Shown here one piece after another: positions 3,001 through 6,000 of a DNA stretch of 7,207 bases. Position numbers: made by a program. Each line of letters starts with the position of its first letter. Position 1 is the first letter of the stretch. Source of the DNA: a virus (taxonomy: Duplodnaviria > Heunggongvirae > Uroviricota > Caudoviricetes). The stretch is from IMG/VR virus record IMGVR_UViG_2675903559_000012. One strand, written 5' to 3'.

Positions 3001-6000
3001 ACCTACCGGAATTTTTTTCCGGTTAAACGTTAATCAGGCTGGTGGGCTTTACCTGTTCGGTAGGTGTTATGATTATCGTAATACCTTTCCCCCAATGGGG
3101 TAAAAGCATCAACCGTAACGAAAGTCGTTATGGTTGCCACTGATACCCCAAATTTGGGTATCACGAGTAAGACCCAAAATCTGGGTGTTACTCTTACTAC
3201 CCAAACTACGGGTAGTTTCCGTAGTTTCATGGTCGAGTTGCAGATCTGCAACTCCCCCATTAACCACAGGCGAATTTCCGCCTTCGGTCATTCCTTAATC
3301 ATCTGCGTAATCATAATGATTATTCAGCAAGCGCAATTTTGCGCTTTGCTTAAAGTTCAGCGAGTTACCGCGCCGACTTCCTCAAATTGAGGTTTCCGAA
3401 AATATCAGCGGGTTAGCGATTAAGCTGATCATTAATTAAACTGCGAAAATTTCGTAGTTTGTGACTGTCTTTCAGGCAGCTTGTTAACAGTCCTCAGAAG
3501 CGAGGGATGTAGCCACCCATTTTTGGTCCGTCGGGAATATCAACCAGTTACCGCCGCAACCGCTCCGGCTTCTTCCAGTGGTACGTTATTTTCTCCTTCT
3601 CCCGATACATCTCCACGCGGCGACGGTAGGCCAGCAACTCAAGAACTCTGGTTCGTATGTTGCGCATATCCACGCCATTAAGTTCTATACCATCACGGCG
3701 CATCACCTCAGCAACAACACGCGCATAGTTTTCGGCTGTCACGCTGTCCGGCTGCGTGGTCTGTTCGTCAGCCTGCTGGCTGATTCCAGAGACGCGGCGG
3801 ATTAATCGCAGTATTTCGGATTCAGTCATAGCGTACTACGTTACTTATCTTTATTCGGCTGCAACTTTTCCGGTACGTTTCCGGTTGTTTCTTTCAAGTA
3901 ATCAGCCAGTATCTGTGGGAGGTTGTCGGCAACTCTGGCACTGGCATTACAGGCTTTAACCACTTCCCTTTTAAGCCTATCCAGCATGGCGGGGGTAATC
4001 TGTGGGAAGCTCCTTTGCATAGTAAGCGGGAGGCTGTCCATGATTGATGAAATCTGACTCGCCAGCTTTGAAAGCGCGTACAGGCAAAACTCAGTATCGA
4101 TCACGTCACCGCGATCGCGCTCGTTTTTAAGTTCCTGCGCCTCCGCCTGTGCTGTCAGTAATCTGATCCTGACTCGTAAGAGTTCATCATCATCAATATC
4201 GCCTTTGTCGTTTGTAAGCTGGCTAATTGCATTGTTAACCCTATTGTCTATCACGCTGGCAACATCGTAAAACGCCTCACGGCCTTTACGTTCAACGGGA
4301 GTCACTCCCCACTTGTCGAACGCTGTCGCACTTACACGGCAGCTTTTCGCCATGTTTTTTTTGTTCATCAGGTGCGATTTCATTAATACACCAACTTAAT
4401 TACTGCTTCAGGTTGGTGTATTGTTTGCATCTTTCCCTTTTCATTCATAAAGATAGAGCAAACAACAAAACCACCACCACCCCCCTGAAAAGGCTCATAA
4501 ATAGCGAAAAACCGCGAGGTCGCCGCCCCGTAACGGGTCCATATGCCGGAAAGGACCCGTAAAAAAAAGCCGGATTTCTCCGGCCTTGTCTCAGATGGTT
4601 TTCAGTATGCGATCGATGTCGCCGTCATCGCCCTGGTTTCTGCCATCGTATGCCATGCCAGCTGATACGGCTTGCGGGCTGTGCATGTCCATAAAGTTTT
4701 CAAAGGCTGCGGTAAGTTCCGGCGCAACCTTCGGACGTTCCTGCTCTATGGTCATGCTAAGGATGCTTTTAGCCGTACCAACATCGATACAAGGCACGTT
4801 TGCCATTGCACGTAACAGCGGCTGATAGTCGCCAGATTCATCAAGCGCCATAATCGCATCAGCGCGCGGCTTGTCCTGCTCTTCCAGTTTGTTAAGTTGA
4901 TATATGGCCTCGTAGGTTGATAACCCTCTGTCAGCCATTGCCCGCGCTTCGGCTTTAAATTTACTCGCCAGCGGTAGCGTCATGATGCTTTCATTCGTTG
5001 CCATCGTTCCCCCTGCTTATCGGGCCAGCGGCTGAACGGATACGCCAGAACCCGCAAAGGCGGCGCATTTTTTCGCATCGGTGTCGACGCTCTCAGGCCA
5101 GTTAACGGCGGCAATATTGAATATCCCCGTCTTGTAACACTGTGCTGATTTCTGCTTTGACGTGTCCACAGGATACGAAGTCAGATAAACAGCCTTGCCA
5201 GATTCCTGACCATCCCACGGCTTAAACTCGCCATTGTCCGCCAGCATCAGCGGGGTAAATTCCTGAATAACGCCAGCATCAACGGCAAAATGTACCAGCG
5301 TCGTGGCGACCTGCTGACTGCCTGCAAATAACTCAATGTATGGAGTGTCCATAGAATCCCCCGTTAAGCAATTTTGACGGTAACAAATTTGCGAATATCT
5401 GCCGGAACCGGCTGCGGTGCGCTGTGCGTCTGCACGTACTCAATCGCCGGATCGCCGTCCTCAATCCAGTTTTTCGGGTAAAACATGTTTTGCGTTGCGC
5501 CCGTTCTTACTGCGTCCTGATCCATAATCGCACCATAGGCCACCAGCCCTTTATTGTTGGTGTTGCCCAGGACAAGCAAATCAGGCTCAAGGAAATATTT
5601 TTCTGTGCCGTCGCTGTCGGCGTATTTGCCGGAATAGACGATAAGGGCAATATCGCCCAGATAGCCTTTAAAGCTCACCACTTCGCCCAGGTTTTTACAG
5701 GCCAGCTCTGCGGCGGACTCTGAACCACGGGAAAGATCGTACAGCTCACGGAATTTTTTAAAGCTGCGTAACGTGCGCCATACCTCAGCGCCCATAATCA
5801 TGACGTTTGCGGGGCAACCAGCCTGATCAGCATAAAGCTCGATGTCATAGATTGGATCGTGTGTTTCCTTATCTGCCTCTGACCACTTTTTACCCGGTCC
5901 CTGTCTGGCGATGTTTTTACTTGGGATCTTCCAGTCTATTTCATAGCGTTCTATGCCTTCGCCCTCAATGATGTTTTTTCCGGTCGTTATCGCATTCACC

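What the first reader, a model, noticed from the sequence alone, without database searches (positions are those of the whole stretch)
3841..4383. Small terminase with conserved assembly and large-terminase-binding region but altered N-terminal domain
Similarity to lambda Nu1 is strongest in the central and C-terminal part, which in Nu1 mediates self-assembly and interaction with the large terminase. The N-terminal DNA-binding region is more divergent. That is the pattern expected of a protein that still docks to a helper large terminase but reads a different DNA site, which is one way a satellite can redirect packaging to itself. Some enterobacterial islands are instead reported to use a separate redirecting protein that binds the helper small terminase; which mechanism applies here cannot be decided from sequence.
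Basis: inference. Interest (0 to 1): 0.6.

Follow-up and report, generated by a model that had tools for sequence, protein, structure and literature searches.

The report
Satellite island's own small terminase
This gene is the small terminase of an E. coli phage-parasitic island (PICI), placed beside the island's own packaging site; it is a known kind of gene, but its DNA-reading end is of the phage N15 type rather than new, and the end expected to grip the helper's motor is the least conserved part.

Summary
The ORF is real: minus strand, 3841-4383, 180 aa. It belongs to the lambda Nu1 small-terminase family (Pfam 83 bits; 35% identity to Nu1).

It is not a prophage gene. It lies at the right end of a phage-inducible chromosomal island (PICI) inserted in tqsA. 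A lambda-type cos site sits directly upstream, and no large terminase follows.

Sister islands at the same chromosomal site are identical through cosQ and cosN. They then carry a different cosB plus rppA in place of terS.

- Versus Nu1, the central region is most similar (45-60%).
- The winged-helix domain is 40% identical.
- The stretch matching Nu1's large-terminase-binding end is only 27% identical.

The N-terminal domain is not novel. It is 62% identical to N15 gp1, and seven consecutive recognition-helix residues are the same. Across satellite copies it is the most conserved part; the C-terminus is the fastest evolving.

A box, GGTGGTGGTKTTGTT, lies about 51-65 bp from cosN. It occurs in all 13 fetched satellite loci and in none of 74 others.

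One relative is embedded in a prophage whose TerL is 99% identical to lambda gpA.

Most likely this TerS binds the island's own cosB and recruits a lambda-type helper TerL. That step is untested.

The parts
3841..4383 (-). terS: 180-aa Nu1-family small terminase encoded by the island. Predicted layout: N15-type winged-helix domain (about residues 5-56), then three long helices (65-90, 97-125, 131-167) and a variable 14-aa tail.
   Evidence: ORF. Pfam and PHROG hits. Alignments. AF2 secondary structure (mean pLDDT 62, low confidence). dN/dS 0.07-0.21.
4517..4528 (-). cosN: the 12-nt cohesive-end sequence GGGCGGCGACCT, identical to lambda. It is the only copy in the window.
   Evidence: Pattern search. 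Alignment with the lambda, phi80 and N15 left ends.
4546..4558 (-). cosQ-like box GGGTCCTTTCCGG, upstream of cosN. It is conserved in TerS-type islands, in Rpp-type islands and in the lambda-like helper prophage of strain J-8.
   Evidence: Alignments A1 and A6. Sequence read.
4495..4507 (-). Conserved stretch CGCTATTTATGA(G) just after cosN. It is the last segment shared with lambda and with Rpp-type islands. The cosB-plus-gene cassette diverges immediately after it.
   Evidence: Alignments A1, A3 and A6.
4461..4479 (-). cosB box 1, the proposed R3-like TerS site: TGGTGGTGGTTTTGTTGTT, about bp 50-68 from the first base of cosN. It shares TTGTTGTTT with the mapped N15 R3.
   Evidence: Unique in the window. 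Conserved among satellites whose TerS is only 54-59% identical. GGTGGTGGTKTTGTT is in 13/13 satellite loci and 0/74 other loci. N15 R3 is bp 48-59, GAGGTTGTTGTT, per PMC4669245.
4412..4422 (.). cosB box 2, the proposed R2-like site: AATACACCAAC on the terS strand, bp 107-117 from cosN. It is an inverted, imperfect copy of the core of box 1. I read lambda R2 at about bp 107-122, so the position is nearly the same.
   Evidence: Found: exact in 8 satellite loci and in none of the 74 non-satellite loci. Conserved in L014, L016 and L021. The lambda R2 position was read from alignment A3.
4385..4395 (-). Second copy of GTTGGTGTATT, direct with respect to box 1, ending one base before the terS ATG. 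With box 2 it forms an 11-bp perfect inverted repeat in this window. This arm is not conserved in other alleles, so its role is doubtful.
   Evidence: The arm is broken in J-8, L018 and L019 and absent in helper-embedded PICIs.
4566..4587 (-). Terminator-like hairpin followed by a T8 run, between the 137-aa gene and cosQ.
   Evidence: Conserved in L001 and L003.
3548..3829 (-). 93-aa gene of unknown function (phrog_1561), downstream of terS. It is conserved in both TerS-type and Rpp-type islands.
4591..6419 (-). Island morphogenesis module upstream of cos: a 137-aa protein (phrog_1999, weak match to the C-terminus of head maturation proteases), a gpD-like decoration protein (5017-5352) and a gpE-like major capsid protein (5364-6419).
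   Evidence: The same module is found in 598 E. coli genomes.

Best explanation
This is the packaging-specificity subunit of a Gram-negative PICI that uses its own TerS instead of Rpp.

Proposed mechanism:
1. The island carries a lambda-type cos. Its cosQ and cosN are the substrates of a lambda-type large terminase.
2. Its cosB is private to the island: an R3-like (GGT)3-(GTT)2 box and an inverted R2-like box, at lambda-like distances from cosN.
3. The island TerS reads this cosB with an N15-type winged-helix domain.
4. Through its helical C-terminal half it brings the helper's TerL (lambda gpA type) to the island's cosN.
5. Island concatemers are then cut and packaged into helper-made heads.

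Lambda terminase cannot package DNA carrying the N15 cosB (PMC4669245). If it likewise cannot use this island's cosB, the island's DNA is served by its own TerS rather than by the helper holoenzyme.

Shown here: family membership, satellite context, the cos anatomy, the cassette swap with rpp, co-occurrence of the box with the TerS clade, purifying selection, and a natural pairing with a lambda-terminase prophage.

Inferred, not shown: DNA binding to box 1 and box 2, and direct docking on TerL.
For: - Family: Nu1 family.
- Context: no terL follows. The complete relative L001 has int, HTH regulator, primase, PerC, capsid, decoration, cos, terS.
- Cassette swap: the sister island L003, at the same tqsA site, is identical through cosQ and cosN. 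It then has a different cosB plus a 144-aa protein that hits RppC (6hlk) at 4.5e-31.
- No Rpp here: tblastn finds no Rpp homologue in the window, L001 or L020.
- DNA-binding domain: 62% identical to N15 gp1, with AFDKWGV identical.
- Box 1: conserved where the flanking sequence is not, across satellites whose TerS is 54-59% identical. It is specific to this clade, 13/13 against 0/74 loci.
- Box 2: specific to the satellite loci.
- Natural pairing: the E. coli J-8 satellite (TerS 91% identical to the window's) is inserted in the portal gene of a prophage whose TerL is 99% lambda gpA. Its cosQ and cosN match the helper's exactly up to the cosB boundary. Eleven genomes share this configuration.
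- Selection: all segments are under purifying selection, dN/dS 0.07-0.21 overall.
- C-terminal motif: the window has LPQILADYL. The motif (L/I)PxxLx(D/E)Y(I/L/V) is shared with lambda, N15, phi80, PhiR12 and Hali, but not with phage 21.
- Literature: a hybrid TerS with N15 packaging specificity works with lambda TerL, and lambda terminase cannot package N15-cosB DNA (PMC4669245). PICI TerS as packaging redirector: PMC6092414 and PMC10085698.
Against: - The counterpart of Nu1's gpA-binding end is only 27% identical to lambda Nu1, which is essentially the J-8 helper's TerS, and 23-38% to any phage TerS compared. Direct docking is therefore not supported by conservation.
- That end is also the fastest-evolving part of the protein in satellites.
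- In box 1 the GTTGTT core lies at bp 63-68, against bp 54-59 in N15. The cosN-to-R3 spacing is critical in lambda (PMC4669245, PMC9026076).
- No IHF consensus site lies between the two boxes.
- ISME J 2018 (PMC6092414) reported that two TerS-encoding E. coli PICIs, EcCIIHE3034 and EcCI18098, were not transferred after mitomycin C induction. No helper has been demonstrated experimentally.
- The AF2 model has low confidence (mean pLDDT 62).
- The fold search gave no significant hit.
Confidence: 0.6

Rival explanations
1. Rpp-like logic through a different interface. The island TerS does not dock on TerL itself. It co-assembles with the helper's Nu1 through the conserved central helical region. 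The mixed oligomer binds the island cosB through the island subunits and holds gpA through the helper subunits. This would poison helper packaging and redirect it at the same time.
For: - The central region (71-140) is the part most similar to lambda-type TerS: 60% over 71-100 and 45% over 101-140.
- The presumed gpA-binding end is poorly conserved (27%) even though a natural helper carries lambda gpA.
- Rpp sets a precedent for satellite-helper TerS heterocomplexes, and there the helper TerS is required (PMC6739421, PMC9026076).
Against: - The C-terminal 141-180 is still under purifying selection: dN/dS 0.11-0.20 in the three more diverged comparisons and 0.71 in the closest pair, which has few substitutions.
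- It keeps the LPxxLxDY motif of lambda, N15 and phi80 TerS. That is easier to explain if it has a partner of its own.
- There is no direct evidence of hetero-oligomers.
Confidence: 0.2
2. Mainly an interference factor. The protein's chief role is to block the helper, by titrating TerL or by occupying helper cos. N15-specific terminase can package lambda DNA, so an N15-type domain might bind lambda cosB. On this reading the protein does not itself promote island packaging.
For: - The asymmetric lambda/N15 packaging specificity (PMC4669245) makes binding of an N15-type domain to lambda cosB conceivable.
- PICIs commonly interfere with helper packaging (PMC6739421).
Against: - The strict association of this TerS clade with a private conserved cosB box beside a functional-looking cosN indicates a cognate site on the island itself.
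- Interference and redirection are not mutually exclusive.
Confidence: 0.1
3. An ordinary prophage small terminase left behind in a decayed lambdoid prophage, with no present function.
For: RefSeq annotates it simply as 'terminase small subunit'. It lies next to lambda-like capsid and decoration genes.
Against: - The same compact architecture recurs with an intact ORF. At least 80% of the terS-93aa segment is found in 745 complete E. coli genomes.
- dN/dS is 0.07-0.21.
- No terL, portal or tail genes are present in complete relatives.
- It is interchangeable with rpp at the same position.
- The closest phage TerS, N15 gp1, is only 46% identical.
Confidence: 0.04

Closest known systems
TerS-encoding E. 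coli PICIs (EcCIIHE3034, EcCI18098; Fillol-Salom et al. 2018, PMC6092414) and the 'small terminase' core component of PICIs in SatelliteFinder (PMC10085698)
   Same: Same kind of element and same gene class: a Gram-negative PICI with int, alpA-like regulator, primase, capsid E, decoration D and a terS homologue. The gene order matches that of relatives L001 and L020.
   Different: I did not compare sequences with those named islands, so identity with them is not established. The held literature gives no mechanism, cos anatomy or helper for the TerS-type E. coli islands. The two tested islands did not transfer after mitomycin C induction.
Rpp (RppA/B/C) of EcCICFT073-type PICIs (PMC6739421, PMC9026076)
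   Same: Same position in the island, right after the same cosQ and cosN and before the same 93-aa gene. In L003 it is even at the same chromosomal site, tqsA. Same presumed job of retargeting a lambda-type terminase to the island cos. Rpp has a solved winged-helix DNA-binding domain, and this TerS is predicted to have one.
   Different: No detectable sequence similarity (BLASTP E=1.4; no PDB hit to 6hlk). Rpp is 139-154 aa, lacks a TerL-binding end and needs the helper TerS. This protein is a full-length Nu1 homologue. The cosB core is ACCACCACC in the Rpp-type island and GGTGGTGGT, the opposite orientation, here.
Phage N15 gp1 and the N15-type TerS of many gammaproteobacterial prophages
   Same: Closest phage relative: 46% overall and 62% in the DNA-binding domain, with AFDKWGV identical. 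The cosB shares TTGTTGTTT with N15 R3 (PMC4669245).
   Different: N15-type phage TerS genes are followed by a 640-680-aa TerL; this one is not. The satellite clade has T where phages have Q (phages SVQAFDKWGV; window SATAFDKWGV, other satellites GVTAFDKWG). It carries a (GGT)3 extension of the box that no phage locus has. Its C-terminal end is only 35% identical to N15's.
Lambda Nu1 (gpNu1)
   Same: Same Pfam family. Same layout: winged-helix domain, long helical core, C-terminal end. Same placement directly downstream of cosQ-cosN-cosB. The two-box cosB geometry resembles lambda R3 and R2.
   Different: 35% identity overall, with a different recognition helix (TIQNWQE in lambda). The wing is shorter by three residues and about 11 residues are missing after helix 3. 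The gpA-binding end is 27% identical. There is an extra 14-aa tail and no overlapping A gene.
SaPI TerS (TerS-S) with Ppi in staphylococcal pac-type PICIs
   Same: Same strategy: the satellite supplies its own small terminase, which recognises satellite DNA and uses the helper's large terminase (as summarised in PMC6739421 and PMC6092414).
   Different: A headful (pac) system in Gram-positives, and an analogue rather than a shown homologue: only the Nu1 Pfam family scores above its cut-off here. The system here is cos-type. No Ppi homologue was looked for.

Membership tests
Lambda Nu1-type small terminase (Pfam PF07471 Phage_Nu1) | Sequence match to the family profile above the curated threshold | tested here: met
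   83 bits against a cut-off of 30, E=2.3e-23. phrog_57 E=2.9e-53. BLASTP to Nu1 E=1e-34.
Lambda Nu1-type small terminase (Pfam PF07471 Phage_Nu1) | N-terminal winged helix-turn-helix DNA-binding domain | tested here: inconclusive
   The predicted order strand-helix-helix-strand-strand-helix over residues 5-56 fits. The top Foldseek hits are MerR-like winged-helix proteins (RacA, SoxR, BldC, Xis), but none is significant (E>=0.33). The model is low confidence. The domain is 62% identical to the N15 gp1 DNA-binding domain. phmmer against the PDB did not retrieve the Nu1 DNA-binding domain.
Lambda Nu1-type small terminase (Pfam PF07471 Phage_Nu1) | C-terminal ~40 residues bind the N-terminus of the cognate large terminase | not testable with these tools
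   Only sequence is available: 23-38% identity to phage TerS over residues 141-166, with the motif LPxxLxDY retained.
Lambda Nu1-type small terminase (Pfam PF07471 Phage_Nu1) | Gene lies just downstream of cos and is followed by, and overlaps, the large terminase gene | tested here: not met
   The cos adjacency is met: cosN at 4517-4528 and the ATG at 4383. No terL follows. The next gene is a 93-aa ORF, and the complete relative L001 has no TerL. This is what separates a satellite copy from a phage copy. It does not bear on homology.
Gram-negative PICI (EcCI) | int, alpA-type regulator and primase, then a short late module; about 10-15 kb; no tail or lysis genes | tested here: met
   The window holds only the right end. 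The complete relatives L001, L003 and L020 show the full architecture.
Gram-negative PICI (EcCI) | Induction, packaging and transfer by a helper phage | not testable with these tools
   Indirect evidence only. The cosQ and cosN are identical to those of a lambda-type helper, and a close relative is embedded in such a prophage. The literature reports no transfer for two TerS-type islands after mitomycin C induction (PMC6092414).
Rpp (redirecting phage packaging) proteins | Sequence homology to RppA, RppB or RppC | tested here: not met
   BLASTP against the RppA-like protein of L003 gives E=1.4. The PDB search gives no hit to 6hlk. tblastn of RppA finds nothing in the window.
Capsid-forming PICI (cf-PICI) | Own TerL, portal, protease, HNH and head-tail connectors in addition to capsid and TerS | tested here: not met
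   The complete relatives L001 and L020 have only the capsid, the decoration protein, one small protein and TerS.

The most novel reading that the evidence does not exclude
TerS and Rpp may be two interchangeable cassettes, each a cosB plus its reader, plugged in behind one shared cosQ-cosN. Both would read the same (GGT)3/(ACC)3 core, placed in opposite orientations. The TerS version would then be a natural specificity swap: an N15-type reader with a Q-to-T change on a fast-evolving helper-facing end. It might work by co-assembling with the helper's Nu1 rather than by docking on TerL. That would be a new way for a cos-type satellite to capture a terminase.
Probability: 0.2. Interest if true: 0.6.

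Novelty: new member of a known kind. Interest (0 to 1): 0.35.

Why it matters
PICIs spread virulence and defence genes among enterobacteria. For E. coli islands, only the Rpp route of stealing a lambda-type terminase has been worked out.

- About one in seven complete E. coli genomes carries this terS segment (745 of 5,426).
- This analysis gives the TerS route concrete, testable parts: a defined cosB box, a defined recognition helix differing from N15 at one notable position, and a natural helper-satellite pair with lambda terminase.
- It also corrects the expectation that the helper-docking end is the conserved part. It is the variable part, which may be where helper range is set.

Tried and rejected
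- **PDB sequence search.** The search with the TerS gave no terminase or Rpp hit at E<=1. The 93-aa neighbour also gave nothing.
- **First genome-contig scan.** The scan with the single protein found no relatives. The alignment-based scan worked.
- **Structure.** The AF2 model was low confidence (mean pLDDT 62). Foldseek against the PDB gave no significant match. I use only the secondary-structure order.
- **Hairpin or operator before the ATG.** I considered that the perfect 11-bp inverted repeat (4385-4395 with 4412-4422) is an RNA hairpin or a palindromic operator. I rejected it as a conserved feature because the ATG-proximal arm is broken in J-8, L018 and L019 and absent in helper-embedded PICIs. 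Only the distal arm (box 2) is conserved.
- **IHF site.** No IHF consensus lies between the two boxes.
- **N15-like remote rR2 site.** No such site was found inside terS.
- **Helper terminases of the capsid-embedded PICIs.** For the Enterobacter and Citrobacter loci L010-L016 they lie beyond the 10-kb flank and could not be reached. I used the E. coli J-8 pair instead.
- **O157 Sakai.** The prophage literature (PMC2669165) did not let me assign this island to a named Sp or SpLE element.
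Full report
**What is at the coordinates**

The window holds a 180-aa ORF on the minus strand at 3841-4383.
- It scores 83 bits on Pfam Phage_Nu1 (cut-off 30, E=2.3e-23), with the match covering residues 33-148.
- It scores 2.9e-53 on phrog_57 'terminase small subunit' over residues 1-175.
- BLASTP against lambda Nu1 gives 35% identity over 179 columns, E=1e-34.

The observation of a Nu1-like small terminase is therefore real.

**Where it sits**

The left part of the window is E. coli chromosome: asr, ydgD, mdtI, mdtJ and a truncated tqsA. 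From about 2800 onward, everything on the minus strand belongs to an inserted element. In transcription order the element has:
- a PerC-family regulator;
- a 68-aa protein;
- a gpE-like major capsid protein;
- a gpD-like decoration protein;
- a 137-aa protein;
- an intergenic region;
- this terS;
- a 93-aa protein.

Complete relatives show the rest: integrase, a small HTH regulator, Icd-like genes and a primase. They have no portal, tail, lysis or large-terminase genes (L001). This is the architecture of Gram-negative phage-inducible chromosomal islands (PMC6092414, PMC10085698).

At least 80% of the terS-93aa segment is found in 745 of 5,426 complete E. coli genomes. The capsid module is found in 598.

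**The packaging site**

The 207-bp intergenic region upstream of terS is a lambda-type cos. Reading the minus strand:
- a terminator-like hairpin (4587-4566);
- a cosQ-like box GGGTCCTTTCCGG (4558-4546);
- the exact lambda cohesive-end sequence GGGCGGCGACCT (4528-4517);
- CGCTATTTATGA, as in lambda.

After that point the sequence no longer resembles lambda cosB.

**terS and rpp are alternative cassettes**

An island in strain CFSAN067215 (L003) sits at the same tqsA site. It is nearly identical to the window through cosQ, cosN and TTTATGA, and again in the 93-aa gene. Between these it carries a different cosB and a 144-aa protein. That protein matches RppC (PDB 6hlk) at 4.5e-31.

The window protein shows no similarity to it (E=1.4). 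tblastn finds no Rpp homologue in the window, in the complete TerS-type island L001, or in L020. So the Rpp mechanism described for EcCICFT073 (PMC6739421) is not encoded here. terS occupies its slot.

Identity to lambda Nu1 by segment:

| Segment | Residues | Identity to Nu1 |
|---|---|---|
| Winged-helix domain | 6-47 | 40% |
| Linker | 48-70 | 9% |
| Central, first part | 71-100 | 60% |
| Central, second part | 101-140 | 45% |
| Counterpart of the gpA-binding end | 141-166 | 27% |

The centre is indeed the most similar part. The presumed large-terminase-binding end is the least similar structured part.

The N-terminal domain is unusual only when judged against lambda:
- It is 62% identical to N15 gp1 and 64% to Pseudomonas phage Hali TerS.
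- The stretch AFDKWGV is identical to N15. It aligns with Nu1's recognition helix, residues 17-24 (PMC9026076).
- N15 gp1 is the best phage hit overall, at 46%.
- The N15-type helix SVQAFDKWGV is common in prophage TerS across Escherichia, Erwinia, Aeromonas, Pseudomonas and Halomonas. In almost all of those loci a 640-680-aa TerL follows.
- The satellite copies form their own subclade, with T in place of Q (window SATAFDKWGV; other satellites GVTAFDKWG).

Mean pairwise identity:

| Segment | Within E. coli alleles | E. coli alleles vs the ~59% group |
|---|---|---|
| DNA-binding domain (6-47) | 96% | 76% |
| Residues 71-100 | 97% | 67% |
| Residues 141-166 | 73% | 31% |
| 14-aa tail (167-180) | 70% | 3% |

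All segments are still under purifying selection. dN/dS is 0.07-0.21 overall, and 0.11-0.20 for the C-terminal end in the three more diverged comparisons. Synonymous divergence differs several-fold between the two halves in different alleles, which suggests recombination between modules.

**The cognate DNA site**

Count from the first base of cosN.
- E. coli islands have TGGTGGTGGTTTTGTTGTT at about bp 50-68 (window 4479-4461; unique in the window).
- The Enterobacter and Citrobacter satellites, with TerS only 57-59% identical, have GGTGGTGGTGTTGTTGTT in register.
- So does a Superficieibacter satellite (TerS 54% identical).
- In all of these the flanking sequence has diverged.

GGTGGTGGTKTTGTT occurs exactly once, 85-100 nt upstream of terS, in all 13 satellite loci fetched. 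It occurs in none of the 74 other loci, which include N15-type and lambda-type prophage terminase loci.

The box shares TTGTTGTTT with the N15 R3 site. That site was mapped by block mutations to bp 48-59, GAGGTTGTTGTT (PMC4669245).

A second box, AATACACCMAC, lies at bp 107-117 (window 4412-4422).
- It is an inverted, imperfect copy of the core of box 1.
- I read lambda R2 at about bp 107-122 in the alignment, so the position is nearly the same.
- It is exact in eight satellite loci and in none of the 74 non-satellite loci.

In this window a further direct copy sits just before the ATG and makes a perfect 11-bp inverted repeat. That arm is not conserved, so I do not give it a role.

**A natural helper**

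The ~59%-identical homologues lie in PICIs inserted in the capsid gene of lambdoid prophages. This is the 'helper-embedded' configuration described in PMC10111431.

In E. coli J-8, a satellite whose TerS is 91% identical to the window's is inserted in the portal gene of a prophage.
- That prophage's large terminase is 638/641 identical to lambda gpA.
- Its small terminase is essentially Nu1.
- The satellite's cosQ-cosN segment is identical to its helper's over about 70 bp, up to TTTATGA. The two then diverge.
- Eleven complete genomes share this configuration.

This ties the clade to lambda-type terminase, and so does the window's lambda-identical cosN.

**Mechanism**

The best-supported reading has three steps.
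1. The island TerS binds the island's private cosB with an N15-type domain.
2. It delivers a lambda-type helper TerL to the shared cosN.
3. Island DNA is then packaged.

Two published results make this plausible. Lambda terminase cannot package DNA carrying N15 cosB, and a hybrid TerS with N15 packaging specificity works with lambda TerL (PMC4669245).

The weak point is the TerL contact. The relevant end is only 27% identical to the Nu1 of a demonstrated neighbour-helper. It does keep an LPxxLxDY motif that lambda, N15, phi80, PhiR12 and Hali share and phage 21 lacks.

The main rival is that the well-conserved centre lets it co-assemble with the helper's Nu1, an Rpp-like outcome by a different interface. 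A helper nu1 deletion would separate the two models.

Other caveats:
- The GTTGTT core lies 9 bp further from cosN than in N15.
- No IHF consensus lies between the boxes.
- Two TerS-type E. coli islands did not transfer after mitomycin C induction in the only published test (PMC6092414).
- The structure model is low confidence (mean pLDDT 62). It supports only the order of secondary-structure elements. Its best fold matches are MerR-like winged helices, none significant.

**Novelty**

That some E. coli PICIs encode a TerS is published (PMC6092414), and TerS is a core marker in SatelliteFinder (PMC10085698). The gene is therefore a new member of a known kind.

What I did not find in the held literature:
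- the N15-type identity of its reader domain;
- the clade-specific cosB boxes;
- the exact cassette boundary shared with rpp;
- the finding that the helper-facing end is the variable one.

These are modest but testable additions.

Noticed in passing
window 3090-3270: A dense run of four to five near-perfect hairpins in the non-coding right end of the island. The RNA fold z-score is -8.6 on the minus strand and -10.1 on the plus strand. There is no Rfam match at gathering score or at E<=1. The segment is shared with the L001 island, which sits at a different integration site. Function unknown.
   Followed up: partly
window 3830-3840 (junction); compare L001:12743-12997 and L003:9283-9561: This copy lacks a ~240-bp segment that L001 and L003 carry between terS (or rpp) and the 93-aa gene. 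That segment holds a second cosN in inverted orientation, probably the 'cos2' reported for EcCICFT073. The J-8 satellite also lacks it.
   Followed up: partly
L003:10035-10043 versus window 4470-4478: The Rpp-type island has ACCACCACC at bp 55-63 from cosN, the stretch the Murialdo and Feiss review calls invariant in four Rpp PICIs. TerS-type islands have the reverse complement, GGTGGTGGT, at bp 51-59. The same 9-mer in opposite orientation in two otherwise unrelated cosB cassettes is unlikely to be chance.
   Followed up: partly
L019:2053-2280 (E. coli EC43): One TerS-type island has an altered cosN: GGGCGGCAGACG instead of GGGCGGCGACCT. The Superficieibacter satellite has GGGCGTCGACCT. Cohesive-end variants may track different helpers.
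   Followed up: no
window 4591-5004: The 137-aa protein between the decoration gene and cos (phrog_1999) matches weakly the C-terminal end of head maturation proteases (phrog_53, 9e-9), so it may be scaffold-like. In other islands an unrelated ~115-127-aa gene (annotated HTH regulator in E. coli; Phage_AlpA Pfam hit in the helper-embedded PICIs) holds the same slot.
   Followed up: no
window 6866-7138: A full-length PerC-family transcriptional activator (Pfam 1.3e-43) is carried by the island. PICI-borne PerC homologues have been linked to activation of the LEE pathogenicity island (PMC6092414).
   Followed up: no
L010-L016 (about 6560-7900) and L014:1-254: Helper-embedded relatives carry variable accessory genes just after terS: FRG plus DUF3892, or a 402-aa protein. 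L014 has a CAP12/TIR-like gene at the left end of the locus. These may be defence cargo.
   Followed up: no
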